From Candidatus Hydrogenedens sp. (lineage in GTDB: Bacteria; Hydrogenedentota; Hydrogenedentia; Hydrogenedentales; Hydrogenedentaceae), in assembly GCA_049968235.1 (NCBI GenBank), contig JBMFRC010000013.1, positions 1-64,000 of the forward strand: a stretch of 64,000 nucleotides of DNA, read 5' to 3'. Below the pieces are notes generated by a model, which was not told the DNA's origin, made no database searches, and saw only the letters and a program-made list of their open reading frames with translations. Each line of letters begins with the position of its first letter. Position 1 is the first letter of the stretch. The position numbers and the translations under genes are program-made. Of this stretch, positions 42,645 to 60,106 are shown piece by piece.

Positions 42645-44219
42645 CTATTGATGTGTCGTTTTTATAATTTTACTGTCGAGTTCTGCTATCCCTGCAATTT
42701 TTAACCGCCCTTTGTTAAGACTTATTGTGATTTTGATTTTTTTGAATAACTTAATTTTATTGAATAAATCATTTATTTTTTCCGGGTTTTGAAATTGTAA
42801 TACATTTGATTCCATTAGAACTGCGACTGCATTGTTAATTTCTGTAATAAGTTTTTCCGGTTTCACCTGTAGAATCAATGAATAATTACCTTCAGATAAG
42901 GTGTTCTTATTTTTTATATGTTCTATTATCTGATTTTGTAATTCTCGGTTATTCGCAAATAGCAAAGAATCTTCTGCACACTGGATATGTAAATCTGTCT
43001 GAGAACTACCAATAAGAGGGACAATATATTCATTGGAATTGGGAGAAGAAAGAGCCTTATTTTTCTCTCCAAGAACAATGATGGTAGGGTCGATAATTGC
43101 TTGAACAATATCTTCGCACATATTGGGGTTTGTTTTTGCAATAACACAATATCTGGGTATAAAGGGAATAATTTCATCTGTATAAAAAGAATCTACCGCA
43201 ATATAAAACTCATTATTAACAAAAGGAGAAAAAGATTTTAACCAGTCTGCAAAGGGAATTTCTGTTGGATTGGTAAAGGGTTGTATAAGACTGGCTTTTG
43301 GTATGGTTTCAAAAGCACGGAGCCATGTTTTAATCGGTACACCTGTGTTAATAGAACAAGAAAAAAGTGTATCTACAGGTTCCTGTAAGGGGGATGAGAC
43401 AACTTCCGAAAGTAAAATTGTCCACGGTGTTTCCATATCCGGAGTTATTTGTGTTTCACATTTAAGTCCCAATTGGTCTCTTGTTAAGGCAAGATAGAAA
43501 TAAATTTGAGAAAAGAGTCCCTGAAAATCCTCATGTTGAGGTGTGAAAGTTCCCCATGCTAAATGCCTTTCCTGATTCCTCATGAGTTCAGCAGTGATGA
43601 CTGTCTCTGTTTTTTTGTCTCCCTTTTGTGTTATGGATTGCACCAGTGTTTCGCGATTGGGTGATAAGAGCAGGACCCTTCCCTTACGTGCATAATATAA
43701 TTTCTGTTCCGGTAGGTACCGCAGATTTAGACCACCTGCCCAATCTACTTCTATAGGCTGTGTCCATGAATAAAGTTTTTCAATAACACAACCAATGCAT
43801 GATAGCCGAACAATTAACAGGGCATCTTCAAATGTTTTCAGGTCGTTCACAGAAAAATAGAAAAAGTCATAAATAAGATGTTTTATTACCCATAAAGGTA
43901 TTCGTTGTTGGTCAGATAACAATTTCTTTACTTCAAGTATCATTGAAGAAGGTTCTGCCAATTCCCAGAGAGGAGAGGCTATAAGGGTCTGGTAATTCTG
44001 CATAATTTGTGGACTGAAAACTTGAAAGGCAGGTGCATTAGGAATAAATCGTTCCACAGGATATATATCTCTTGTTGACCATGTGAACCAGACGAAGAAA
44101 AGGAAAATAATCAGGGTAAATAACTTCAATAAAAACTTTAAAAAACTTTTTTTAGGTCTTCGCCTTCGCATACCAGATACACGATATACACGCATAGTTT
44201 CACTCATAAAAATAATCAA
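42645..44219 (-). CDS. Hypothetical N-terminally membrane-anchored protein
   Basis: It overlaps the upstream gene by 4 nt, which suggests an operon. An RRRRPKK segment is followed by a TM helix. No domain was recognised. Confidence 0.45.
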   Translation of the reverse strand: MIIFMSETMRVYRVSGMRRRRPKKSFLKFLLKLFTLIIFLFFVWFTWSTRDIYPVERFIPNAPAFQVFSPQIMQNYQTLIASPLWELAEPSSMILEVKKLLSDQQRIPLWVIKHLIYDFFYFSVNDLKTFEDALLIVRLSCIGCVIEKLYSWTQPIEVDWAGGLNLRYLPEQKLYYARKGRVLLLSPNRETLVQSITQKGDKKTETVITAELMRNQERHLAWGTFTPQHEDFQGLFSQIYFYLALTRDQLGLKCETQITPDMETPWTILLSEVVSSPLQEPVDTLFSCSINTGVPIKTWLRAFETIPKASLIQPFTNPTEIPFADWLKSFSPFVNNEFYIAVDSFYTDEIIPFIPRYCVIAKTNPNMCEDIVQAIIDPTIIVLGEKNKALSSPNSNEYIVPLIGSSQTDLHIQCAEDSLLFANNRELQNQIIEHIKNKNTLSEGNYSLILQVKPEKLITEINNAVAVLMESNVLQFQNPEKINDLFNKIKLFKKIKITISLNKGRLKIAGIAELDSKIIKTTHQ

Positions 44220-46588
44220 ATCCCTGATTCTATGGATATAAATTCTGAAGGCTTTCCTTCATTATCTCTGACTGATAGCCAGACTTTATTTTCCGTCGGT
44301 TCAAAGATTACACTTAAACGACTATTCCCATTCCATATTTGGGAAGGAGAACTATCTTGATTATCGGAAGATGTCATAATCGTTTTGAGTTCTTCCGGAC
44401 TAATAATCCGTTCATCTTCTATTTTTTTTATGAGATTTGAATATCTTTTTACAGTAGATTCCGAGGCAGTTGCAATGGAACCACAACCCAATAAGATACC
44501 CTGTTTAGAAAGGTCCTGAGCAATAGTATCTTCCGGTTTGAGCGAAGGGAATAGTAATGCAGACCATTTCCCTTTATTATCCTTCCCTGCAAGGAGTACA
44601 TGGTATGCTTGTGGGATAATTATTTTAGATATTTCTTCCACTGCCGACTCGAGGGTATTACATGTAGATAAAATATGTTTCATTGTAAATTCAGGACCCG
44701 GCGTATCCTCCGATAGATTTGTTTTTATAGAGGCATCCCGAGTTATAGACAAAACGATACCAGATTGATTCATCCCACATAGGGTTCCATCAAACCATGG
44801 AAAACCAATCTCAATAAAATTTACTCCATGGACAGGTTTATGTCGGAATATAACCGGCAATTCATTTATTGCCCAATCAACCGTATGAGCAATAAGAATA
44901 TCCTTTGCTCCTGCTCGTTCTCCCAAAATAGCAACAGCGGTGCATAAGGGCGTATCAAATAGCGGATTATAAGATTGAGCATTCTGTATATTTATAGCAT
45001 TTTGAAGAAGCCAGATTTTATCGAACGGCATTTCCGCACCATCAGATATGCCTATGAGTTCATCTACTATTTCTGGATGCAATTTCTTTGCCCATGGTCG
45101 GATGCTAATTGCCATAGCAGGCAAGATTAAAGAACTAATATTTATCCATGATGATGGGATGAAGGAAAAGAAACCCTGTTCTGGCAGGTATCGTCCCTCC
45201 AGTATAGGTCTTTGTATTAATTCATCAAATCGCTTCTGAATCTGCTCCTTTGAAAATTGTCCCCTTGCCGAACCTCTTTCGTAAGAAGTCCCCGATAGAT
45301 TTATAATGGAAATGGAACCTATCTTATCGATTTGAGGAATATCCACGGGAGTAATCTGTAATTCCGGCTTTTCTATTCCTATTAAAGATAAACATGTATT
45401 CAAGACCCACTTTTCTGCCTGAGGCCCAAAAAAATGAGCTCCTGCCTCGTATGTTTTATCAAAAAGGAGATGTTTCGGTACAAAATACACCAGATAATCA
45501 TTTGCCAGACCCACTGTGAAATGTGCTTTAAATCCTGCCTCTAACGCATGTTCACGAAGTTGGAGTGCGTATTCCACACACACTTCTCCGGGGAAAAAGG
45601 AAATAGCCAAACCATTTACCTGGAGTGAATGGAACAGTACCTTTTCCGGGAAAAAGGTCGCTATACTTATGGGTAGAGGTATTTCTTTTGCTGTTAATTT
45701 TAATTTTGCATCGGAAAGAGGAACACTTTTCTGTGCTTCATAAACACGCCGTGCCAAAATCCTCCCTACTTTTTCAGTTCGAGCCCAGCCGGAACTTTGT
45801 TCGGGGGCTTGAATAGTCTGGTTCCCTTCTGCACCGTTCAGAAAGAATGGGACACAACCCGGTGAAGATAACTGTTCTATTTCAAGATAGTAATATCCCG
45901 GATAATCGGAAGAGAAGGAATAAAAATCCTCATCCCCAATGGATGTGGGATGCCCTGCCATATTGGCAATTATTGCAATCTCATTCCCGTTTGCATCTTC
46001 AATCACAATAAAACCAATTTGCGGGTCCATCGGACCTACCGGATAACGGCGATTGCAGGTTAAATCGTTTTGCTGAATACTCCCATACCCCAATACAGCA
46101 TTTTGTGCTTTCTCTTTTGCATCGCGAAGTGCCTGACTGATAATACGTGCTGTGCGTTCTACAAGTTCGGGGATATATCTGCCAGAGACAAAGCGGATAG
46201 GATAATTTTTGCACATTCCCCCAAAACCATTGTGGGTATGGGTCGCAGTCATAATAATATTTTGTGACGGGAAATTTTCAGGTGCCATAATAATAACTTT
46301 TTCTCGCAGTTCTCGGTCAATAACACACAAATCCAAACTAACGAGAAATAGTTCTGTTTCATCATCTGCAAGATAAAGGACATGCGCCCACAAGGGGTCA
46401 TGAACTGCTCTCGCTCCTTTTCCTAATCTCGCACCATAACCATTCAGAGGAACACCTAAATCCGGGGTAATTTCAACTTTAACCGCTCCTGCTTTAAGAG
46501 CCTCCGTACAAAATGGATAAAATAACAGCAAAGAAAATATAAAACAGATAATAAAGACTTTATTTAAAAAGATACTCTGCTTTTTCAT
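44216..46588 (-). CDS. Fusion protein: N-terminal neutral/alkaline ceramidase domain plus C-terminal Ntn-hydrolase (peptidase C45 / acyl-CoA:6-APA acyltransferase-like) domain
   Basis: After the signal peptide, AGAVKVEITPDLGVPLNGYG ... LVSLDL ... MTATHTHNGFGGM parallels the neutral ceramidase GAGKADITGP ... SATHTHSGPGGY motifs. The C-terminal PLCTAVAIL ... GMNQSGIVLS fits the Cys-nucleophile and GxNExGL pattern of C45 Ntn hydrolases. Confidence 0.55.
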   Translation of the reverse strand: MKKQSIFLNKVFIICFIFSLLLFYPFCTEALKAGAVKVEITPDLGVPLNGYGARLGKGARAVHDPLWAHVLYLADDETELFLVSLDLCVIDRELREKVIIMAPENFPSQNIIMTATHTHNGFGGMCKNYPIRFVSGRYIPELVERTARIISQALRDAKEKAQNAVLGYGSIQQNDLTCNRRYPVGPMDPQIGFIVIEDANGNEIAIIANMAGHPTSIGDEDFYSFSSDYPGYYYLEIEQLSSPGCVPFFLNGAEGNQTIQAPEQSSGWARTEKVGRILARRVYEAQKSVPLSDAKLKLTAKEIPLPISIATFFPEKVLFHSLQVNGLAISFFPGEVCVEYALQLREHALEAGFKAHFTVGLANDYLVYFVPKHLLFDKTYEAGAHFFGPQAEKWVLNTCLSLIGIEKPELQITPVDIPQIDKIGSISIINLSGTSYERGSARGQFSKEQIQKRFDELIQRPILEGRYLPEQGFFSFIPSSWINISSLILPAMAISIRPWAKKLHPEIVDELIGISDGAEMPFDKIWLLQNAINIQNAQSYNPLFDTPLCTAVAILGERAGAKDILIAHTVDWAINELPVIFRHKPVHGVNFIEIGFPWFDGTLCGMNQSGIVLSITRDASIKTNLSEDTPGPEFTMKHILSTCNTLESAVEEISKIIIPQAYHVLLAGKDNKGKWSALLFPSLKPEDTIAQDLSKQGILLGCGSIATASESTVKRYSNLIKKIEDERIISPEELKTIMTSSDNQDSSPSQIWNGNSRLSVIFEPTENKVWLSVRDNEGKPSEFISIESGI

Positions 46589-46718
46589 AATAATTTCTCA
46601 TATCTATAATCTCTTATTGTATCACTGATGATAAGCAATAAGCGACTATATTACAGATGAAACAAATTCGCGAGAAAGATGCCCAACCGTCAACAGATTA
46701 TCTTTTTATTAGCCTACA

Positions 46719-47126
46719 TTAATGATGATGATTACATGTCAAACCCTCTTCATGCTTCAAAGAACCTTGAAGAAAAAGAGTAAGGGCTGTTTTTATATCT
46801 TTTTCTGATGTGATTATCGTTCTTATATTAGCAGACTCGAATCTGCTTTTCATCCCGTATCCCATTCCACCCGCAATTACCACATCAATATTCGCAAATC
46901 TTTGTGCTACTTGTTCGTGCGTATCTATAGAATGATTATGCTCATGGGAATGCGGTTGTGAATGTTCTGAATCATGAGAATGTTGGGCATGCCCGGTAAT
47001 TGTATTCGGGATATACTCTTCATTTACGATATTACCGTTCTCAATCTCGACAATTAAAAAACCTTTCGTTCGCCCAAAATGTGCTGAAATTGTTTTTTTA
47101 TTATTTGTTGGAATAACAACTTTCAT
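46719..47126 (-). CDS. NifB/NifX-family dinitrogenase FeMo-cofactor-binding-like domain protein with a His-rich insert
   Basis: MKVVIPTNNKKTISAHFGRTKGFLIV ... VVIAGGMGYGM is the typical NifX/NafY-like fold signature. It has a His-rich loop HAQHSHDSEHSQPHSHEHNHS. Confidence 0.7.
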   Translation of the reverse strand: MKVVIPTNNKKTISAHFGRTKGFLIVEIENGNIVNEEYIPNTITGHAQHSHDSEHSQPHSHEHNHSIDTHEQVAQRFANIDVVIAGGMGYGMKSRFESANIRTIITSEKDIKTALTLFLQGSLKHEEGLTCNHHH

Positions 47127-47159
47127 AATAGTTCCTCTCGAATTTCAGATTAGTAATTT

Positions 47160-47486
47160 TTACAGTTCTATGTTTTTCACCTTTGAAGCATGCAGGATGT
47201 TCCCTCTGGAACTGCGATAAAATGCATGGGGTCCTCTACCACAGCGACATGGACCGATATAAGTCCATTCGGAAGATTCTGTTGTTTCGTTCGACAAATT
47301 GCTTTCCGGTGGGTTATCTGCTGGATTGTTCGGAGACATCCATCTCCAACCTTGACGATAATAACCCGGTGAAGATAATCCGGGGGTCGGACTGTTAGTA
47401 GACATCCATCTCCGACCTTGACCACCACCGAAACGGAATTGTCCACGATTATTAAATGAATTAGCAAAATTTCTTTGGGTTCTCAT
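47160..47486 (-). CDS. Gly/Arg/Trp-rich small protein with an internal 22-aa tandem repeat (possibly DUF5320-like)
   Basis: A strong RBS aaggag lies 7 nt upstream. The composition and the position between the DUF134 and NifX-like genes match the DUF134 / DUF5320 / NifX neighbourhood of anaerobes. Homology is not certain. Confidence 0.4.
   Translation of the reverse strand: MRTQRNFANSFNNRGQFRFGGGQGRRWMSTNSPTPGLSSPGYYRQGWRWMSPNNPADNPPESNLSNETTESSEWTYIGPCRCGRGPHAFYRSSRGNILHASKVKNIEL
47325..47456. repeat. 66-bp tandem direct repeat inside CDS 47160..47486
   Basis: ggattgttcggagacatccatctccaaccttgac recurs 66 bp later as ggactgttagtagacatccatctccgaccttgac. It encodes the GRRWMSTNSP / GWRWMSPNNP repeat. 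Confidence 0.5.
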
Positions 47487-47510
47487 TGTTAATCTCCTTA
47501 TTATTAAAGT

Positions 47511-47906
47511 TCATTGTTTACTTTCATTTTTATTCCGGTCTGATTCTAAAAAATAAGCCTTCTGTTTACAATGCCTATGGCAATGTCTACCACCACCACG
47601 CTCCTTCTGTCTGCAAACAAAATTGACAGGTCCCCCCATTATCCGAATGGGCTTCCCCTCTACAATAGCACCAACAATCTTCCTGCGTGCCTGCTCAATG
47701 ATTCGTGAAAATGTGGGGCGTGAGACTCCCATTTCTTGCCCCGCTTCTTCATGATACATTCCCAAATAATCAGCGAGACGGAGTGCTTCAAACTCATCCA
47801 GAGAAAGCACTACTGGCTCTCTTTCCATTCCTCCCTGTTCACAAGGAATGAATTCCTTAACGGGCGGGCATGCATTCAATCTTCGGGAACAATAGGGTCT
47901 TGCCAT
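47511..47906 (-). CDS. DUF134 (UPF0251) putative DNA-binding protein
   Basis: The N-terminus MARPYCSRRLNACPPVKEFIPCEQG matches the DUF134 M-P-R-P-x-K-x-R-R-V ... F-K-P signature. The central region has a sigma-70 region 4-like HTH. The C-terminus is Cys/His-rich. Confidence 0.7.
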   Translation of the reverse strand: MARPYCSRRLNACPPVKEFIPCEQGGMEREPVVLSLDEFEALRLADYLGMYHEEAGQEMGVSRPTFSRIIEQARRKIVGAIVEGKPIRIMGGPVNFVCRQKERGGGRHCHRHCKQKAYFLESDRNKNESKQ

Positions 47907-47935
47907 TATAATTCCTTTTTAATTTTCACGATTCA

Positions 47936-47955
47936 TTATGAACATATGTTCATAA
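47936..47955. promoter_or_regulatory. 20-bp perfect palindrome TTATGAACATATGTTCATAA, a candidate operator
   Basis: Read directly from the sequence. It lies about 30 bp upstream of the DUF134 start codon, in the divergent region shared with the aceE operon. Confidence 0.4.
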
Positions 47956-48115
47956 TTATAACGCAGTTTCGTAGCAAAAGTAAACAAAAATAACTAATTT
48001 TTTAGAAAGATACTCAAAAAAAAAAAAATAAATTAATCAATTAATTTGTTAGTATAATTGGATAATTAACATGGAATATTTAGTAAAATAAAAAAAAACA
48101 GAGGGGACGCTATTT

Positions 48116-50809
48116 ATGAGTAGTTCTGATTATAAAAATGAGATGCAAGAACAAATCAGTGCAATGACTTTTCCGGATGAAGAATGGATTGATGCATTAA
48201 AAGCCTATCTGGAAGAACGAGGTCCTCAGGCAACAGCAAAGTTGATTCGAAGACTTCAGGATTATACTTACCTTTTAGGTATTCGCAAGCCCTGCCCCGC
48301 AACTACGCCGTATGTTAATTCCATTCCTGTATCGGAACAGCCGGAATATCCAGGTAATCGTGAATTAGAACGAATTATTAAATCATATATCCGCTGGAAT
48401 GCAATGGCAATGGTAGTTCGTGCAAACCGCGAAGCAGATGGTATTGGGGGGCATATATCTACTTATGCTTCTGTAGCCACCCTATATGAAGTAGGATTTA
48501 ACCATTTTTTCAAGGCACGAACTGAAGACTACGGTGGTGATTTAATTTATTTTCAGGGACATGCTTCACCGGGAATATATGCACGAGCTTACTTAGAGGG
48601 ACGGCTTTCCGAGAATGACCTAAAAAACTTTCGACGCGAATTAAATAAAGGAGGAGGCTTGCCGTCATATCCACATCCACGACTTATGCCGGGATTCTGG
48701 CAATTCCCAACCGTTTCTATGGGACTGGGTCCTATTATGGCAATATATCAGGCACGGTTTAACAAATATTTAGAGAATCGGGGTTTGAAGCCTAAAAATG
48801 GTGGATATGTTTGGGCATTTTTGGGAGATGGCGAGACCGATGAGCCGGAAACATTAGGTGCTATTGGTTTAGCCAGTCGCGAGAAATTAGATAACCTAAT
48901 TTTCGTCATCAACTGTAACTTACAACGTTTAGATGGTCCTGTTCGTGGCAATGGAAAAATTATACAGGAGTTGGAAGCCATATTCCGCGGAGCAGGCTGG
49001 AATGTAATTAAAGTGGTTTGGGGTAGTGATTGGGACCCGCTATTTGAGAAGGATGAACATGGTTTATTGGTAAACGCATTAGGGGATATTGTTGATGGTG
49101 AGTATCAGAAATTTTCTGTTTCATCCGGGGAATATATTCGCAAAAAAATGATAGAACATGAACCGCGTCTGGCTCCGTATCTCGAACAGGTTTCAGATAT
49201 TCAATTACGCCAATTGCGTAGGGGTGGACATGACCCGGTAAAGGTATATTCTGCGTATTATCATGCGTTACAAACACAAGGGACTCCTACGGTAATATTG
49301 GCAAAGACAATCAAAGGATATGGACTTGGTGAAAGTGGCGAAGGGAAGAATATAACCCATCAACAAAAGAAACTCAATGAAGATGAACTACGCGAATTTC
49401 GGGCTCGCTTCGGGATTCCTGTCTCCGATGATGAGATTGCCTTCGCCCCGTTTTGTAAACCACCGGAAGACCATCCCGCTATGATATACCTCCAGGAACG
49501 ACGCAAGGCATTAGGCGGGTATTTGCCCCATCGCGATGTATTGGCACCGCCTTTACCTGCACCTGAAAACGAGCTGTTTGATGAGTTTTATAAAGGGACA
49601 CCTCGTCCCGTCTCCACAACGATGGCATTTGTTTCTATTTTACGAAAATTATTACAACATGAACGGATTGGCAAATTAATCGTTCCTATTGTGCCAGACG
49701 AAGCACGCACTTTCGGTATGGAAGGATTATTCCGTCAAATAGGAATTTATTCTTCGCAAGGACAAAAATACGAACCTGTAGATTCCGAATCGGTTCTGTA
49801 TTACAAAGAAACAACAGATGGGCAAATCCTTGAAGAAGGGATTTCAGAAGCAGGTTCAATGGCTTCTTTTATTTCTGCAGGAACCGCTTATGCCAGTCAT
49901 GGAATTAATACCATTCCTTTTTTCATCTTCTATTCTATGTTCGGATTTCAGCGGATTGGTGATTTAATCTGGGCATCTGCAGATATGAAAGTACGTGGAT
50001 TTCTCGTAGGTGGCACTGCGGGCAGAACAACCCTTGCCGGGGAAGGTCTGCAACATCAGGATGGACACAGTCACCTCCTCGCTATGTCTGTTCCCTGCCT
50101 TCGTGCATATGACCCCGCGTACGCCTACGAAATAGCCATTATTGTGCAGGAAGGCATTCGTAGCATGTATGAAAAGCAGGAACCGGTATTTTATTATTTA
50201 ACTGTGGGCAATGAAAACTACACCATGCCACCTATCCCGGCGGGGAAAAAAATACGCGATGGGATTATTAAAGGTTTATATCTACTTCGACCTTCTTCCT
50301 TAAAAAAATCAAAAATGAAAGTAAATTTATTAGGCAGTGGTTCATTACTTAATGAAGCACTAAAAGCACAGTTCGTTCTCGAAGAGGAATTTAATATCTC
50401 TGCAGATGTATGGAGTGCCACGAGTTATAAAATGCTCCGTGAAAATGCCCTGGAAACAGAACGCTGGAATCAGCTACATCCAATATCTACCAAAAAAATT
50501 CCGTATGTAACCGAATGCCTGAACAACAATGCACATGCAACCATTGCCGTTTCCGATTATGTAAAACTTGTTCCGGACAGTATATCCCGATGGGTTCCGC
50601 AAAGGTTTATATCCTTAGGAACAGATGGTTTTGGGCGTTCCGATACACGAGAAGCCCTGCGACATTACTTTGAGGTAGATAGCCGGTATATCATACTATC
50701 TGCCCTGTCTGCACTGGCTCAAGATAAGAAAATAGATACAAATATCGTAAAAAAATACATGCGGTCCGCAGATATACCTGCAAATAAAAAGTCTCCTATG
50801 GACTTATAA
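48116..50809 (+). CDS. aceE: Pyruvate dehydrogenase E1 component, homodimeric type
   Basis: 897 aa. A ThDP-binding GDGETDEPE region and overall E1p architecture are present. It is followed by E2 and E3. Confidence 0.9.
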   Translation: MSSSDYKNEMQEQISAMTFPDEEWIDALKAYLEERGPQATAKLIRRLQDYTYLLGIRKPCPATTPYVNSIPVSEQPEYPGNRELERIIKSYIRWNAMAMVVRANREADGIGGHISTYASVATLYEVGFNHFFKARTEDYGGDLIYFQGHASPGIYARAYLEGRLSENDLKNFRRELNKGGGLPSYPHPRLMPGFWQFPTVSMGLGPIMAIYQARFNKYLENRGLKPKNGGYVWAFLGDGETDEPETLGAIGLASREKLDNLIFVINCNLQRLDGPVRGNGKIIQELEAIFRGAGWNVIKVVWGSDWDPLFEKDEHGLLVNALGDIVDGEYQKFSVSSGEYIRKKMIEHEPRLAPYLEQVSDIQLRQLRRGGHDPVKVYSAYYHALQTQGTPTVILAKTIKGYGLGESGEGKNITHQQKKLNEDELREFRARFGIPVSDDEIAFAPFCKPPEDHPAMIYLQERRKALGGYLPHRDVLAPPLPAPENELFDEFYKGTPRPVSTTMAFVSILRKLLQHERIGKLIVPIVPDEARTFGMEGLFRQIGIYSSQGQKYEPVDSESVLYYKETTDGQILEEGISEAGSMASFISAGTAYASHGINTIPFFIFYSMFGFQRIGDLIWASADMKVRGFLVGGTAGRTTLAGEGLQHQDGHSHLLAMSVPCLRAYDPAYAYEIAIIVQEGIRSMYEKQEPVFYYLTVGNENYTMPPIPAGKKIRDGIIKGLYLLRPSSLKKSKMKVNLLGSGSLLNEALKAQFVLEEEFNISADVWSATSYKMLRENALETERWNQLHPISTKKIPYVTECLNNNAHATIAVSDYVKLVPDSISRWVPQRFISLGTDGFGRSDTREALRHYFEVDSRYIILSALSALAQDKKIDTNIVKKYMRSADIPANKKSPMDL

Positions 50810-53632: not shown

Positions 53633-54154
53633 CTATCCTTCATTATCGTTCATCTTATCTTCCTCATCAGGTCTTTTTATATACGTATCAATCCCATATT
53701 TATCATAAACATTAAAAATCTCCTCGCAAAACTGTATAATCCGCATATCACTTTTCTCTTTTGCTTCATTATAAAGCCTTATTATAAACCGTTTCCCAAA
53801 CTCCGTTTGAGAATAATTCTTCTTTAAATAATTATTCACCGAACATAATGTTTGTCCATTTTCAACAGAATTTGTCCCTCCTTTATCCAGCGGAATCCTA
53901 TGGTCCACATGTATCTCCACACCATCTTCCCTACCCCTTACACAAACCACACAACGATAATTGTCCCTCTCAAATATTTCTTCCTTCACTGAATCAGTAA
54001 ATTCAAATAACTCCCTTTTCTGAACCAAATCGGGGTCATATTTATAGACCCCTTTTTTTTCCTTTATTAGCCACCCACTTTGATGTAATTTTCGAATCCC
54101 CCACCAGGGATCTCTCGGTTTTCTCCCATACAACTTTTTATATTGTTCTTCCAC
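53633..54154 (-). CDS. HNH endonuclease
   Basis: The HNH motif is CVVCVRGREDGVEIHVDHRIPLDKGGTNSVENGQTLCSVNN. GTG start. It lies 100 bp downstream of the methyltransferase pseudogene on the same strand. Confidence 0.7.
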   Translation of the reverse strand: MEEQYKKLYGRKPRDPWWGIRKLHQSGWLIKEKKGVYKYDPDLVQKRELFEFTDSVKEEIFERDNYRCVVCVRGREDGVEIHVDHRIPLDKGGTNSVENGQTLCSVNNYLKKNYSQTEFGKRFIIRLYNEAKEKSDMRIIQFCEEIFNVYDKYGIDTYIKRPDEEDKMNDNEG

Positions 54155-54255: not shown

Positions 54256-55058
54256 CTATTCAGCCTTCCTTACCATATCGAACCTTAACTGGTCAATCTC
54301 TACCTCTTTTAACAACCGTTGTTTTGCTATTTTGCAATAGTTTTCATCTATTTCAATACCAATTCCTTTCCTATTCGTTGTGGCACATGCAAGAAGAGTT
54401 GTCCCGCTTCCTAAAAAGGGGTCTAATACCGTATCCCCGACAAAAGTAAACAATTTAATACATCGTCTTGGCAATTCAAGTGGAAACGGTGCCGGATGAC
54501 CAATTCTCGTTTTGCTTTCTCCCATAAAAGTCCAAAACCCATTGGTCCACTGGACAAATTCATCTTTTGTTATGTCTGACTCTCCACTTCCACTTGTTTT
54601 TTTCCAATTATTTTTATACAGCACTGCTATCATTTCCACAGGAGCAATTACATACGGTGCCGAAGCAGATAACCATGAACCCCATGCGGTTCTTCAGGAA
54701 ATATTTTGTTCATTCCAAACAATTGCAGAATGGTATTTATAACCTATCTTTTTTGCGATAGTTATTACATCCGCAAATACACTTTGCTGTCCACCTTTGT
54801 TCTTATCCAATGGAATATTTAAACAAAACCTTCCGTCTCCTTTTAATACTCTATACGCTTTATCAAGCCAATTTGCCGTAAATGCCAGATATTCTTTATA
54901 CGAAACTGTATCGTTATATGAATTATAACTAATATCTACATTATACGGAGGGGAAGTTATAATCAAATCGATAGAATTCTCTTCAACACAATCCGTTACC
55001 AGGAAATCTGCATTGTAAATCTGCAGATTATTTCTTTCAAAATAAGTTTTTCTTTCAT
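54256..55058 (-). pseudogene. Disrupted beta-class DNA methyltransferase (SPPY motif IV followed by motif I DPFLGSGTT; probably N4-cytosine type)
   Basis: Hand translation shows NEQNIS-TGA-RTAWGSW, with the TGA in the same frame between ORFs 54694..54966 and 54256..54639. The expected N-terminal strand IYNADFLVTDCVEENSIDLIITSPPY is out of frame with the only upstream ATG (MKEKLILKEIICRF ...), which indicates an additional frameshift near an A-run. Confidence 0.6.
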
Positions 55059-58733: not shown

Positions 58734-59876
58734 TTATTTCTCGATGGAGTCGATGGTCCCGGCACCTAATACGATATCGTTATCATAGAAAACTGCGGTT
58801 TGTCCCGGGGTAATTGCGGATTGGGGTTCATCGAAAATAACATGGACGATTTTTCCATAGTCATCAACTTTTTCTAATTGTGCGGATGCAGGTTCATGGC
58901 GTAATCGTATCTTGCAGTGAATTTTCATAGGTGTTTCGGGCACATCAGGAATGGAAACCCAATTGCAATCTATAACTTTCATGGTTTGTTTTAATAGAGC
59001 AGATTTACGACCTACAATAACACGGTTGTGAATGGGGTCCAATCCGACAACATAATACGGTTCACCGGCTCCCCCTATTCCCAGACCTTTGCGTTGACCA
59101 ATGGTGTAATGGATAATTCCGTGATGTTTTCCTAAAACATGTCCCTGCTCATCCATAATATCTCCTTCTTTCACTTCATCTTCTTGAAATAGCACATCGT
59201 ATTTATTGCTCTCTAAAAAATCCTGACTTTCACTTTGTTCGGCAAGTTCTGGGAAGCCCGCGTTTCGTGCTAAAATTCGGATTTGTGTCTTGGTCAAATT
59301 GCCTAATGGGAAAACAATCTTTTTCAATTGTTCTTGTTGTAACATAGCCAGGAAATAACTCTGGTCTTTTTCTAAATCTACACCACGGAGCAATAAATAT
59401 CGATTTTGCACAGGGTCAAAATGGACACGGGCATAATGTCCCGTTGCAAAATAGTCAAAGGGGATACCCGCTTTTTGTGCTCGTTCTATCAGAAATCCGA
59501 ATTTTATTGTGCGATTACAACGAACGCACGGATTGGGTGTTCTACCGGAGAGATATTCCTGACGAAAATATTCTAATACTGCTTTATTGTATTCATCTGC
59601 GAGTCGGATAACATAAAAGGGAATTTCTAATCGTTTTGCGACGGATTGTGCCATTGCAATTTCCTGTTCTTCACCGGGACCGAAACATCCTTTTACACCA
59701 GTATCCTGCAATGGGAACCGATTATCCCATAGAGACATAGTCAAACCGATAACTTCGCATCCCCGCCGTTTCAATAGCCAGACCGCCATAGAAGAATCCA
59801 CTCCACCACTCATCCCTACCGCTACTTTTGCTCCTGGCGAAGGTAGTAAGTCTAATATTTGCTCCGCAAATTCCAC
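58734..59876 (-). CDS. mnmA: tRNA 2-thiouridine(34) synthase
   Basis: A PP-loop VAVGMSGGVDSS and a conserved Cys (NPCVRCN) are present. Length is 380 aa. Confidence 0.9.
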   Translation of the reverse strand: MEFAEQILDLLPSPGAKVAVGMSGGVDSSMAVWLLKRRGCEVIGLTMSLWDNRFPLQDTGVKGCFGPGEEQEIAMAQSVAKRLEIPFYVIRLADEYNKAVLEYFRQEYLSGRTPNPCVRCNRTIKFGFLIERAQKAGIPFDYFATGHYARVHFDPVQNRYLLLRGVDLEKDQSYFLAMLQQEQLKKIVFPLGNLTKTQIRILARNAGFPELAEQSESQDFLESNKYDVLFQEDEVKEGDIMDEQGHVLGKHHGIIHYTIGQRKGLGIGGAGEPYYVVGLDPIHNRVIVGRKSALLKQTMKVIDCNWVSIPDVPETPMKIHCKIRLRHEPASAQLEKVDDYGKIVHVIFDEPQSAITPGQTAVFYDNDIVLGAGTIDSIEK

Positions 59877-60106
59877 TATTTCATTGCCCTTATAATTTTT
59901 TATTCAACGGATGAAATATTATAAAAGGATATTTCTGAAAACACTAATTCTTCTTTTAAAAGTTTTTGCATACTCTAACCTTAATATAAAATAGGAACCC
60001 ATAACCTCCGCTTTTACTACTTAAAGAACAAATAAATCTTATAAACATTCGCACATAATGTTTTTGGGGACATAAAAAATCTACTATTGTGGGGATTGTA
60101 AAAAAA

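What the first reader, a model, noticed from the sequence alone, without database searches (positions are those of the whole stretch)
46719..47955. DUF134 / Gly-Arg-Trp-rich / NifX-like trio headed by a 20-bp perfect palindrome
Three tightly spaced minus-strand genes reproduce the known but functionally uncharacterised anaerobe neighbourhood DUF134 (putative DNA-binding, sigma-70 r4-like HTH, Cys/His-rich ends) plus a small G/R-rich protein plus a NifX/NafY-like cofactor-binding domain, here with a His-rich insert. About 30 bp upstream of the DUF134 start sits TTATGAACATATGTTCATAA, a 20-bp perfect palindrome. That is a textbook dimeric-regulator operator, plausibly autoregulation by the DUF134 protein. 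The trio lies directly upstream on the same strand of the ceramidase-fusion block. It faces the pyruvate dehydrogenase operon divergently, so the palindrome could also gate aceE.
Basis: partly seen in the sequence, partly recalled or inferred. Interest (0 to 1): 0.6.

Follow-up and report, generated by a model that had tools for sequence, protein, structure and literature searches.

The report
Conserved operator of the DUF134 regulator
The 20-bp palindrome is real and lies inside the promoter of DUF134 genes across many bacterial phyla and in one archaeal contig, so this uncharacterised protein family is very probably a self-regulating repressor with a defined DNA target that can now be tested.

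Summary
Three minus-strand genes are present: DUF134 (47511-47906), a small G/R/W-rich protein (47160-47486) and a Nitro_FeMo-Co (NifX-like) protein with a His-rich insert (46719-47126). TTATGAACATATGTTCATAA lies at 47936-47955, 29 nt before the DUF134 start, and is unique in the window.

Comparative evidence ties the palindrome to DUF134:
- It and its promoter are kept in all Hydrogenedentes orthologues while the flanks diverge.
- A public-genome scan for TTATGAAC-N4-GTTCATAA found 119 loci; 59 have a DUF134 gene starting a median 15 nt downstream, across more than 10 phyla and one archaeal contig.
- Of 79 DUF134 loci retrieved by protein alone, 75 carry the site (4 or fewer mismatches of 16) within 100 nt upstream. 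Background is 0.55%.
- The site always lies inside the core promoter.
- Arm variation is not compensatory, so it acts as DNA, not as an RNA hairpin.

I conclude that it is the autoregulatory, most likely repressive, operator of DUF134. NifX-like genes are the commonest operon partner, and DUF134–NifX fusions exist. Control of aceE is not supported. The small protein itself is not a Pfam DUF5320 member, though some relatives are. I found no literature on this operator. Binding is inferred, not shown.

The parts
47936..47955 (.). 20-bp perfect palindrome TTATGAACATATGTTCATAA, the proposed DUF134 operator. It is identical to the consensus of 73 sites upstream of DUF134 genes.
   Evidence: Unique in the window, with 0 matches in shuffles. 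Conserved in orthologues. Consensus of the unbiased set. Associated with DUF134 in both search directions.
47979..47984 (-). -35-like hexamer TTTACT of the promoter of the three genes, part of the conserved GTTTACTT box.
   Evidence: Promoter scan gives TTTACT-18-TATAAT, 10 of 12 matches. The box is conserved in L002-L008, L010 and L131-L133.
47955..47960 (-). -10 hexamer TATAAT. Its last T is the first base of the palindrome, so the operator would span about -7 to +13.
   Evidence: Conserved in orthologues. No transcription start site has been measured.
47935..47940 (-). Second -10-like hexamer CATAAT, formed by the 3' end of the palindrome plus one T. In most other lineages this is the -10, with TTGACA 15-17 nt upstream.
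   Evidence: CATAAT in 29 of 73 sites; spacer of 15-17 nt in 33 of 38 sites that have a TTGACA-like -35. In the window the matching -35 is poor (GTTATA).
47913..47917 (-). Shine-Dalgarno-like AAGGA, 6 nt before the DUF134 ATG.
   Evidence: Read from the sequence. AAGGAG is conserved in orthologues.
47511..47906 (-). DUF134/UPF0251 protein, 131 aa. It has a sigma-70 region-4-like helix-turn-helix core (residues ~32-83), an N-terminal M-x-RP...R arm, and Cys/His-rich ends. It is the proposed repressor.
   Evidence: Pfam. AF2 model with pLDDT above 90 for residues 31-90. Foldseek best hits are ECF sigma region 4, rmsd 0.7-1.0 over ~47-50 residues. Conservation.
47160..47486 (-). Small G/R/W-rich protein, 108 aa, with the core Y-I-G-P-C-R-C-G-R-G-P-H-A-F-Y. 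It is a divergent relative of a DUF5320-fringe family that lacks the coiled coil. It carries a 22-aa internal duplication.
   Evidence: Homologues. Only this frame is open in all 6 orthologues. DNA direct repeat 47323-47356 / 47389-47422.
46719..47126 (-). Nitro_FeMo-Co (NifX/NifB-C-terminal-like) single-domain protein, 135 aa, with a conserved His-rich loop (residues ~46-70) and a C-terminal CNHHH. It is the commonest operon partner of DUF134.
   Evidence: Pfam and NCBIfam. Alignment A6. Partner statistics. Fusions with DUF134.
48053..48058 (+). Context only: a TATAAT within the block AATTTGTTAGTATAATT, conserved among orthologues. This is the likely aceE -10, 97 nt from the palindrome.
   Evidence: Conserved block seen. 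Coordinates. The promoter scan did not call it because the -35 is poor.

Best explanation
The palindrome is the operator of the DUF134 protein encoded immediately downstream. A DUF134 dimer binds the two half-sites TTATGAAC / GTTCATAA through its sigma-region-4-like helix-turn-helix (recognition helix SRPTFSRI). Because the site lies inside the core promoter, binding blocks RNA polymerase and represses the DUF134 / small protein / NifX-like operon. This is negative autoregulation.

Release is most likely triggered through the Cys/His-rich N- and C-terminal extensions of DUF134, through its NifX-like partner, or both. The signal would be a metal, a metal cluster or redox state.

Shown by computation:
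- the site, its conservation and its promoter position;
- its two-way association with DUF134 across phyla;
- the absence of RNA-type covariation;
- the helix-turn-helix fold.

Inferred:
- that DUF134 is the binder;
- that it binds as a dimer;
- that the effect is repression;
- the nature of the signal.
For: 1. Orthologues. The palindrome and the GTTTACTT...TATAAT promoter are conserved in L002-L008, L010 and L131-L133 while the surrounding intergenic DNA diverges.

2. Motif to gene.
- In 59 of them a DUF134 ORF starts 1-62 nt (median 15) downstream.
- These include Bacteroidales, Acidobacteriota, Omnitrophota, Planctomycetota, Dehalococcoidia, Bacillota, Desulfobacterota, Cloacimonadales, Ignavibacteria and an Aenigmatarchaeota contig.
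- Of the 35 occurrences with the ATAT centre, 26 precede DUF134 and 6 more precede NifX-like or DUF5320 genes (L057's second site: ARMT1-like and PALP genes).

3. Gene to motif. 79 DUF134 loci were retrieved only through the peptide Mx[IV]SRPTF[ST]R.
- 75 have a site with 4 or fewer of 16 mismatches within 100 nt upstream, and 48 have 2 or fewer.
- Elsewhere in the same loci, 17 of 3075 control windows reach that level.

4. Position in three promoter types.
- Sigma-70 type: the site fills the 15-17 nt spacer and supplies the -10 (CATAAT) of TTGACA promoters, in 33 of 38 such sites.
- Bacteroidota-like contigs: it lies between TTTG and TAnnTTTG.
- Archaeal contig L035: it lies between a TTTATAA box and an ATG that overlaps the palindrome.

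5. The same site heads operons with unrelated cargo, so it belongs to the regulator. One type is NifX-like / DUF5320 / MinD-Fer4. The other is ArsP permease / thioredoxin / DsbD / ACR3-like / methyltransferase.

6. The AF2 core matches DNA-bound sigma region 4 and the DeoR helix-turn-helix.

7. DUF134–Nitro_FeMo-Co fusion proteins sit behind the same site.
Against: - There is no binding or expression experiment.
- The DUF134 model is a monomer, so dimerisation is only inferred from the dyad symmetry.
- In the window the best-scoring promoter puts the site at -7..+13, not in the spacer. No transcription start site is known.
- Recognition-helix variants such as SRTTVQR and SRVTFGR sit behind perfect palindromes, so no protein–site covariation supports the pairing.
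- The genome scan was truncated, so the full regulon in any one genome is unknown.
- The archaeal case rests on a single MAG contig.
- An activator or dual role cannot be excluded from position alone.
Confidence: 0.8

Rival explanations
1. The palindrome is a LexA (SOS) box of the Gram-positive 'Cheo box' type, GAAC-N4-GTTC, and the three genes are DNA-damage inducible.
For: The core GAACATATGTTC matches GAAC-N4-GTTC. The similarity to the B. subtilis consensus CGAACATATGTTCG is from my own knowledge. GAAC-N4-GTTC occurs only twice in the window.
Against: - The 20-bp site, with flanks beyond the Cheo core, tracks DUF134 genes in phyla with different LexA motifs and in an archaeal contig.
- 95% of DUF134 genes retrieved by protein carry it.
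- None of the non-DUF134 hits in the scan precede a recognisable lexA, recA or uvr gene, judged from the first 40 residues of the flanking ORFs and a few Pfam runs.
- Two GAAC-N4-GTTC matches in the window is at chance level.
Confidence: 0.03
2. The site is an operator of a Rex-type NADH/NAD+ redox repressor (TTGTGAA-N6-TTCACAA), and DUF134 operons belong to the Rex regulon.
For: - The half-site TTATGAA differs from the Rex half-site TTGTGAA by one base. The Rex consensus is from my own knowledge, and the Rex motifs cited in PMC5886521 are of the same family.
- Some GC-rich DUF134 sites read TTGTGAAC.
- In T. saccharolyticum a transposon insertion in a UPF0251 gene appeared in one adapted delta-rex strain (PMC5886521). 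This is incidental.
Against: - The right arm in the TTGTG variants is GTCCATAA, not TTCACAA.
- The centre CATATG is conserved, unlike Rex spacers.
- The site's fixed position in front of DUF134 itself, whatever the cargo, and in an archaeal contig, fits a local autoregulator.
The exceptions are an FAD pyridine-nucleotide-disulphide oxidoreductase (L018) and a PALP enzyme (L057).
Confidence: 0.04
3. The palindrome acts as an RNA hairpin in the 5' leader (stability or translational control), not as a DNA operator.
For: It could fold into a perfect 8-bp stem with a 4-nt loop. It lies 10-40 nt before the start codon in most loci.
Against: - In 59 unique sites, 110 arm pair-cells differ from consensus. 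Of these, 74 break pairing, 26 give G·U and only 10 are compensatory.
- Sequence is conserved, not just pairing, and so is the loop (CATATG).
- In most lineages the -35 lies just upstream and the -10 is inside the palindrome. In the archaeal contig the ATG overlaps it. The full hairpin would therefore not be transcribed.
- There is no Rfam match.
Confidence: 0.03
4. DUF134 binds the site but works as an activator or a bidirectional regulator that also controls the divergent pyruvate dehydrogenase operon (aceE-aceF-lpd).
For: The divergent aceE arrangement is kept in several Hydrogenedentes lineages: L001, L002-L005, L006-L008 and L131-L133. The intergenic region is only 209 bp.
Against: - The site is 97 nt from the conserved aceE -10 block and overlaps the core promoter of the three genes instead.
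- L010 keeps the three genes, the promoter and the palindrome with a same-strand gene upstream and no aceE.
- In other phyla the upstream neighbour is unrelated.
- The promoter spacers of 15-17 nt are optimal, unlike MerR-type activator promoters.
Confidence: 0.08

Closest known systems
Autoregulated metal/metalloid repressors of the ArsR/SmtB type (what it works like)
   Same: - A small helix-turn-helix protein encoded as the first gene of its operon.
- A dyad operator overlapping its own promoter.
- Cys (and His) clusters at the protein ends.
- In Omnitrophota the DUF134 gene and its site head ArsP_1 permease / Thioredoxin_3 / DsbD_2 / SBF (ACR3-like) / Cys-rich methyltransferase operons, a gene set usually seen behind ArsR.
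   Different: - The fold is a three-helix sigma-region-4-like helix-turn-helix, not the ArsR winged helix.
- There is no sequence similarity.
- No ligand is known.
- The operator sequence is nearly invariant across phyla, which is not typical for ArsR family members.
Orp (orange protein) gene clusters of Desulfovibrio vulgaris Hildenborough
   Same: - Anaerobe-associated clusters of Nitro_FeMo-Co-domain proteins with MinD/Mrp-type Fe-S ATPases. DUF134 operons in L016, L035, L065, L106 and L123 have exactly these partners.
- The window's NifX-like protein weakly matches the C-terminal domain of MrpORP.
- orp expression is redox-controlled (PMC8359166).
   Different: - In D. vulgaris control is by sigma-54 plus the Fe-S enhancer-binding protein OrpR (PMC8359166, PMC3897727). 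Here it is a sigma-70-type promoter with a DUF134 operator.
- The window has no ATPase genes next to the three genes.
- Whether any orp gene encodes a DUF134 protein could not be checked, because the founding paper PMC3133258 is not held.
Sigma-70 region 4 / ECF sigma -35-binding domains
   Same: They are the best structural matches of the DUF134 core: 3vfz_A, 5fgm and 2h27 at rmsd 0.7-1.0 over ~47-50 residues. Pfam gives sub-threshold Sigma70_r4 hits.
   Different: DUF134 has no region 2 and is not a sigma factor. It targets a dyad rather than a single -35 element. It has its own conserved N-terminal arm (M-P-R-P-x-x-x-R) and beta strands.
LexA Cheo box and Rex operator (sequence look-alikes)
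   Same: The GAAC-N4-GTTC core (LexA). The TT(G/A)TGAA-N6-TTCA(C/T)AA layout (Rex).
   Different: The genomic distribution follows DUF134, not SOS or central-redox genes.
Pfam DUF5320 small proteins
   Same: Same position (between DUF134 and NifX-like genes) and same build: a G/R-rich N-terminus, a short Cys-containing Gly/Pro motif, and usually a C-terminal coiled coil. 15 of 50 relatives of the window protein hit PF17253.
   Different: - The window protein has no PF17253 hit even at E=10.
- A profile-profile comparison with canonical DUF5320 gives 0.3% probability.
- Its core motif is Y[IV]GPCRCGxGPHA[FY], not GTGPxGxGPMTGRGxGxC.
- It lacks the coiled coil.

Membership tests
Pfam PF02001 DUF134 (UPF0251) | Score above the Pfam gathering threshold over the whole domain | tested here: met
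   80.7 bits against a cut-off of 27, E=1.3e-22, profile positions 5-94 of 98. Homologues are named 'DUF134 domain-containing' or 'UPF0251 family'.
Pfam PF02001 DUF134 (UPF0251) | Helix-turn-helix DNA-binding core of sigma-70 region-4 type | tested here: met
   The AF2 model has three helices, 36-47, 52-59 and 63-83, at pLDDT above 90. The top Foldseek hits are ECF sigma region 4 domains and the DeoR helix-turn-helix on DNA.
Autoregulated palindrome-binding repressor (functional class) | Dyad-symmetric site overlapping the regulator's own core promoter, conserved with the regulator | tested here: met
Autoregulated palindrome-binding repressor (functional class) | Direct, specific binding of the protein to the site, and repression in vivo | not testable with these tools
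   This needs EMSA or footprinting and reporter or knock-out data.
Pfam PF02579 Nitro_FeMo-Co (NifX/NafY/NifB C-terminal domain superfamily) | Score above the gathering threshold | tested here: met
   58.8 bits against 26.3, E=6.9e-16. Weak PDB relatives are 1t3v, 1o13, 2yx6 and 1eo1, single-domain proteins of unknown function.
NifX proper (NCBIfam TIGR02663) / MrpORP (NF041136) | Equivalog-level score | tested here: not met
   nifX scores 20.1 bits against a cut-off of 112. MrpORP scores 42.7 against 450, and only its C-terminal domain aligns. The protein is NifX-like, not NifX.
Pfam PF17253 DUF5320 (small protein) | Match to the family model | tested here: not met
   No hit at E up to 10 for the window protein and its Hydrogenedentes orthologues. 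hhalign against a canonical DUF5320 alignment gives probability 0.3%.
Pfam PF17253 DUF5320 (small protein) | Transitive homology through relatives that match the model | tested here: inconclusive
   15 of 50 members of the GPCRCGxGPHA family hit PF17253 (best E 1.2e-7). In the two members examined (P0008 and L033_d2) the match runs into or comes through the C-terminal coiled coil, which the window protein lacks.
LexA SOS (Cheo) box | GAAC-N4-GTTC core sequence | tested here: met
   GAACATATGTTC at 47940-47951.
LexA SOS (Cheo) box | Occurrence upstream of SOS genes and dependence on LexA | tested here: not met
   The sites track DUF134, NifX-like and DUF5320 genes across phyla and one archaeal contig. 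No recognisable lexA, recA or uvr genes lie next to the hits, as far as short N-terminal reads and a few Pfam runs show.
Rex operator | TTGTGAA-N6-TTCACAA dyad | tested here: not met
   The window site has A/T instead of G/C at positions 3 and 18. Variants with G3 have a non-Rex right arm, GTCCATAA.
Orp system (D. vulgaris type) | Nitro_FeMo-Co protein(s) together with MinD/Mrp-type Fe-S ATPases, under sigma-54/OrpR control | tested here: not met
   The window has only the NifX-like gene: no ATPase and no sigma-54-type control. Other DUF134 operons do carry CbiA/ParA+Fer4 ATPases.

The most novel reading that the evidence does not exclude
DUF134 and the NifX-like protein form a two-part sensor switch conserved in Bacteria and Archaea. 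The NifX-like protein (here with a His-rich loop) binds a metal or metal-sulfur cofactor. Depending on its loading, it docks onto DUF134, whose conserved Cys pair may share the ligand, and changes occupancy of the near-invariant 20-bp operator. DUF134 would then be the missing general regulator of Orp-type metallocluster genes in anaerobes, and of thiol/arsenic-type detoxification operons in Omnitrophota. Its protein–DNA code would have stayed essentially unchanged across domains of life.
Probability: 0.25. Interest if true: 0.8.

Novelty: new member of a known kind. Interest (0 to 1): 0.62.

Why it matters
DUF134/UPF0251 is a widespread family of unknown function.

- **A testable function.** This analysis turns the family into a testable transcription factor. 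It has a defined consensus operator (TTATGAACATATGTTCATAA), a predicted mode of action (promoter occlusion, autoregulation) and a first regulon sketch: NifX-like, DUF5320, MinD/Fer4 ATPases, ARMT1-like genes and ArsP-type operons.
- **A handle on related genes.** It gives a route into the poorly understood Orp-like and NifX-like genes of anaerobes.
- **Regulon mapping.** The motif can be used to map regulons in thousands of uncultured genomes.
- **Unusual conservation.** It is rare for an operator to stay nearly identical across more than 10 phyla and three promoter architectures.

Tried and rejected
- **Rfam** on 46600-48200 found nothing relevant.
- **Literature.** Searches for DUF134, PF02001, DUF5320, UPF0251, COG1342 and the 16-20-mer itself gave no characterisation. 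The founding orp paper PMC3133258 is not held, so I could not check whether an orp gene is a DUF134.
- **PDB sequence search** with DUF134 found no solved relative.
- **A 16-sequence DUF134 alignment** was too diverse for the search for related loci. A 7-sequence one worked.
- **DUF5320 membership** of the small protein was rejected by hmmscan and hhalign.
- **LexA, Rex and RNA-hairpin readings** were considered and rejected.
- **A second weak site** at 60039-60058 (3 mismatches), upstream of an mnmA-like gene, is at chance level: 0.74 expected.
- **A 15/16 complementarity** between the 5'UTR (47922-47937) and the recognition-helix codons (47697-47712) beats all 200 shuffles but is absent in orthologues. 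I did not build on it.
- **Protein–operator covariation** is not informative. Recognition-helix variants sit behind perfect sites.
- **The regulon of this particular genome** could not be mapped.
Full report
**1. What is in the window**

The window comes from a Candidatus Hydrogenedens MAG. The DUF134 protein is found on GCA_049969095.1 contig JBMFPN010000105, and source names are given.

- 47511-47906 is a DUF134 protein: PF02001, 80.7 bits, E=1.3e-22, with sub-threshold sigma-70 region 4 hits.
- 47160-47486 is a 108-aa G/R/W-rich protein with no Pfam or NCBIfam match.
- 46719-47126 is a Nitro_FeMo-Co domain protein: PF02579, 58.8 bits. It is not NifX or MrpORP at equivalog level.

The palindrome TTATGAACATATGTTCATAA is at 47936-47955. 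It is unique in the window even with three mismatches allowed, and none of 100 shuffles gave a match. It ends 29 nt before the DUF134 ATG.

The promoter scan finds TTTACT-18-TATAAT at 47984..47955 on the minus strand. The last T of the -10 is the first base of the palindrome. A second -10-like hexamer, CATAAT (47940..47935), is formed by the palindrome's 3' end.

**2. Orthologous loci**

The small protein has a handful of homologues. Their contigs show the same three genes: DUF134, small protein, NifX-like.

Upstream, aceE-aceF-lpd is divergent in most of them (L002-L008, and L131-L133). Downstream, the neighbour varies: a convergent TPR gene, a convergent NYN gene, or the ceramidase fusion. 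The three genes are therefore the conserved unit.

In the aligned intergenic regions, the GTTTACTT box, the TATAAT and the palindrome are conserved while the rest drifts. L006 has centre ATAG, and L008 reads TTATGAGCGTATGTTCATAA.

L010 is 76% identical in DUF134. It has the three genes followed by the ceramidase gene, with a same-strand gene upstream instead of aceE, yet it keeps the promoter and the perfect palindrome. The palindrome travels with the three genes, not with aceE.

**3. From the motif to the gene**

I scanned one genome for each of 185,579 species for TTATGAAC-N4-GTTCATAA.
- phmmer on their ORFs shows a DUF134 gene directly downstream of the palindrome in 59 loci. The gap to the M(P)RP... 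start codon is 1-62 nt, median 15.
- The record titles name Bacteroidales, Acidobacteriota, Thermodesulfobacteriota, Bacillota, Erysipelotrichaceae, Dehalococcoidia, Chloroflexota, Omnitrophota, Planctomycetota and Phycisphaerae, Cloacimonadales, Saccharicenans and an Aenigmatarchaeota archaeon.
- These DUF134 proteins are only about 35-50% identical to the window protein, yet the arms are identical.
- Ten further loci (eleven sites; L057 has two) have the palindrome in front of NifX-like genes (L057, L082, L092, L103), DUF5320 genes (L031, L058, L096, L107), a DUF134 gene 190 nt downstream (L098), or ARMT1-like genes (L013, L057). L058 comes from the same MAG as the DUF134 locus L042.
- Of the 35 occurrences with the ATAT centre, 32 are of these kinds. 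Most of the 50 unassigned occurrences have arbitrary centres, as chance matches would.

**4. From the gene to the motif**

To avoid circularity I retrieved DUF134 loci from metagenome contigs by protein only, using the peptide Mx[IV]SRPTF[ST]R. 590 of 600 candidates were confirmed and 80 were kept.
- 79 have enough upstream DNA. The best match to the 16 specified bases within 100 nt of the start has 0 mismatches in 10 loci, 1 in 24, 2 in 14, 3 in 17, 4 in 10, and 5 or more in 4.
- One of the 75 positives, L188, is unreliable because its gene start is off the contig.
- Among 3075 control windows from the same loci, only 17 (0.55%) reach 4 or fewer mismatches.
- The consensus of 73 sites is TTATGAACATATGTTCATAA followed by T. 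The window site is the exact consensus, and the centre CATATG is conserved too.

**5. Position in the promoter**

- In 38 of the 73 sites a TTGACA-like hexamer (5 or more of 6) lies just upstream. In 33 of these the spacer to the hexamer at palindrome positions 16-21 is 15-17 nt. That hexamer is CATAAT in 29 sites. The palindrome therefore fills the spacer and provides the -10 of an ordinary strong sigma-70 promoter.
- In AT-rich contigs with Bacteroidota-like promoter elements, it lies between TTTG and TAnnTTTG. That these are the Bacteroidota -33 and -7 elements is from my own knowledge.
- In the archaeal contig L035, the sequence reads aaaggTTTATAAaca-palindrome-TG. A TATA-like box lies 3 nt upstream and the ATG overlaps the last A, which implies a leaderless transcript.
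- In the Hydrogenedentes clade the conserved promoter places the site at about -7 to +13.

In every architecture a bound protein would exclude RNA polymerase. The optimal spacers argue against a MerR-like activation mechanism.

**6. DNA or RNA**

In 59 unique sites, 110 arm pair-cells differ from the consensus. Of these, 74 break pairing, 26 give G·U and only 10 are compensatory. In most lineages the hairpin would not be fully transcribed. Rfam has nothing here. The element works as DNA.

**7. Look-alike operators**

The core GAAC-N4-GTTC resembles the Gram-positive LexA box. The layout TTATGAA-N6-TTCATAA differs from the Rex consensus by one base per half-site. Both comparisons are from memory.

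Neither fits the distribution.
- The site follows DUF134 whatever the phylum or the operon's cargo.
- It occurs in an archaeal contig.
- The most economical binder with the required distribution is the protein encoded next to every site.

**8. What the regulator controls**

Operon chains behind the palindrome fall into two groups.
- **Orp-like.** DUF5320, one or more Nitro_FeMo-Co proteins, and CbiA/ParA ATPases with 4Fe-4S domains.
- **Detoxification-like, mainly in Omnitrophota, with short Cys-rich DUF134 proteins (MRPKKTRWIKC...GGCC).** ArsP_1 permease in 17 loci, followed by Thioredoxin_3, an unknown Cys protein, DsbD_2, an SBF/ACR3-like carrier and a Cys-rich methyltransferase.

In the unbiased set, a NifX-like gene is in the operon in 31 of 56 loci with called downstream genes. 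It is the gene immediately after DUF134 in about 22 of them. One search's figure of 27 first-gene members is for a merged cluster that also holds other families.

Single-chain DUF134 + Nitro_FeMo-Co fusions exist behind the same site: L021 and L113, confirmed by Pfam. This argues for a physical or functional partnership.

**9. The three proteins**

*DUF134.*
- The AF2 model (67-sequence alignment, mean pLDDT 72.6) is confident for residues 31-90: a strand, three helices, a strand.
- The best PDB matches are -35-binding region 4 domains of ECF sigma factors and the DeoR helix-turn-helix on its operator.
- Invariant or near-invariant positions are R3, P4, R8, P14, LDEFE 36-40, R43, L44, S62, R63, T65, and the cysteines C6 and C109.
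- In the Hydrogenedentes clade C13, C98, H110, H112 and C113 are also kept.
- Other subfamilies carry a C-terminal zinc ribbon or the NifX-like domain instead. The variable ends look like the sensory part.

*The small protein.*
- It is a real gene. Its frame is the only one open in all six orthologues.
- The core Y-[IV]-G-P-C-R-C-G-R-G-P-H-A-F-Y is invariant.
- A profile search of 1.84 billion representatives finds only 94 relatives.
- Most have a C-terminal coiled coil, and 15 of 50 hit DUF5320.
- The window protein lacks the coiled coil, has no DUF5320 hit, and carries a 22-aa duplication.

*The NifX-like protein.* It keeps a His-rich loop (TGHxQHxH...HSHEHNHS) and a C-terminal C-x-H-H in all 14 homologues found.

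**10. Mechanism and confidence**

- Most likely (0.8), DUF134 binds the palindrome.
- Given that, it most likely represses its own operon by promoter occlusion (about 0.65 overall).
- The signal is unknown. The conserved Cys/His decorations, the NifX-like partner and fusions, and the metal-, thiol- and arsenic-type cargo point to a metal, metal-cluster or redox signal (about 0.3-0.4).
- By analogy, the orp operons of Desulfovibrio are switched by the redox-sensitive Fe-S protein OrpR (PMC8359166).
- Control of aceE by this site is unlikely (about 0.08).

**11. Novelty and limits**

Searches of the held literature for the family names and for the site itself found no description. The kind of system, an autoregulated helix-turn-helix repressor with a dyad operator, is ordinary. 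What is new is the assignment of a precise and unusually invariant operator, and a first regulon, to an uncharacterised family.

Limits:
- no experiment and no measured transcription start site;
- the genome scan was truncated, so the regulon of this organism is not mapped;
- the archaeal evidence is a single MAG contig;
- the unbiased set was restricted to DUF134 proteins with the SRPTF[ST]R recognition helix.

Noticed in passing
window 47922-47937 and 47697-47712: The 5'UTR segment just after the operator is 15/16 complementary to the codons of the DUF134 recognition helix (TFSRII). None of 200 UTR shuffles reaches this. Orthologues L002, L006 and L008 only reach the chance level of 11/16, so it looks specific to this window and is unexplained.
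   Followed up: partly
window 47323-47356 and 47389-47422: A direct DNA repeat (34 nt, 88% identical, 66 nt apart) encodes a 22-aa internal duplication (QGRRWMS.../QGWRWMS...) in the small protein. The 85-87-aa orthologues lack it.
   Followed up: partly
window 48016-48028: An A13 homopolymer (T13 on the minus strand) lies in the aceE/DUF134 intergenic region. The L002 orthologue has no such run. It could be a slippage-prone tract or an assembly artefact.
   Followed up: no
window 60039-60058: A weak operator-like site, TTATAAACATTCGCACATAA (3 mismatches), lies in the intergenic region 163 nt upstream of an mnmA-like tRNA 2-thiouridylase gene (58734-59876, minus). It is at chance level, with 0.74 such sites expected.
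   Followed up: partly
window 44216-46588 (minus); also L010 2294-2746: A 790-aa fusion of a neutral-ceramidase-like N-terminal domain with a C45 autoproteolytic acyltransferase/hydrolase domain. A 90%-identical copy follows the three genes in L010 but not in the other orthologues.
   Followed up: partly
window 53633-54154 and 54256-54639 (minus): An HNH endonuclease gene lies next to a 127-aa ORF that matches only the C-terminal part (positions 130-221 of 221) of the N6_N4 DNA methylase model. It is possibly a decayed restriction-modification remnant.
   Followed up: no
loci L023, L027, L038, L041, L047, L048, L052, L060, L072, L077, L083, L099, L109, L110, L112, L114, L127: Mainly in Omnitrophota, short Cys-rich DUF134 proteins (MRPKKTRWIKC...GGCC) with the same operator head ArsP_1 permease / Thioredoxin_3 / DsbD_2 / ACR3-like / methyltransferase operons. 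ArsR would be expected in that position.
   Followed up: partly
L013 ~7523; L057 490 and 2193: ARMT1-like (DUF89, PF01937) genes lie next to the operator in two unrelated phyla. In L057 a second operator copy lies between an ARMT1-like gene and a PALP (cysteine-synthase-like) gene. These are possible extra regulon members.
   Followed up: partly
loci L182, L183 and five others of L131-L210: A 165-aa gene recurs in seven DUF134 operons of the unbiased set. From its N-terminal sequence I guess it is TrmO/YaeB-like. I did not run Pfam on it.
   Followed up: no
L195, about 30 nt upstream of its operator: A second, tandem operator-like copy (TTATGAACATATGTGTGTAA) lies just upstream of the main site (TAATAAACATATGTTCATAA). 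Some lineages may therefore have double operators.
   Followed up: no
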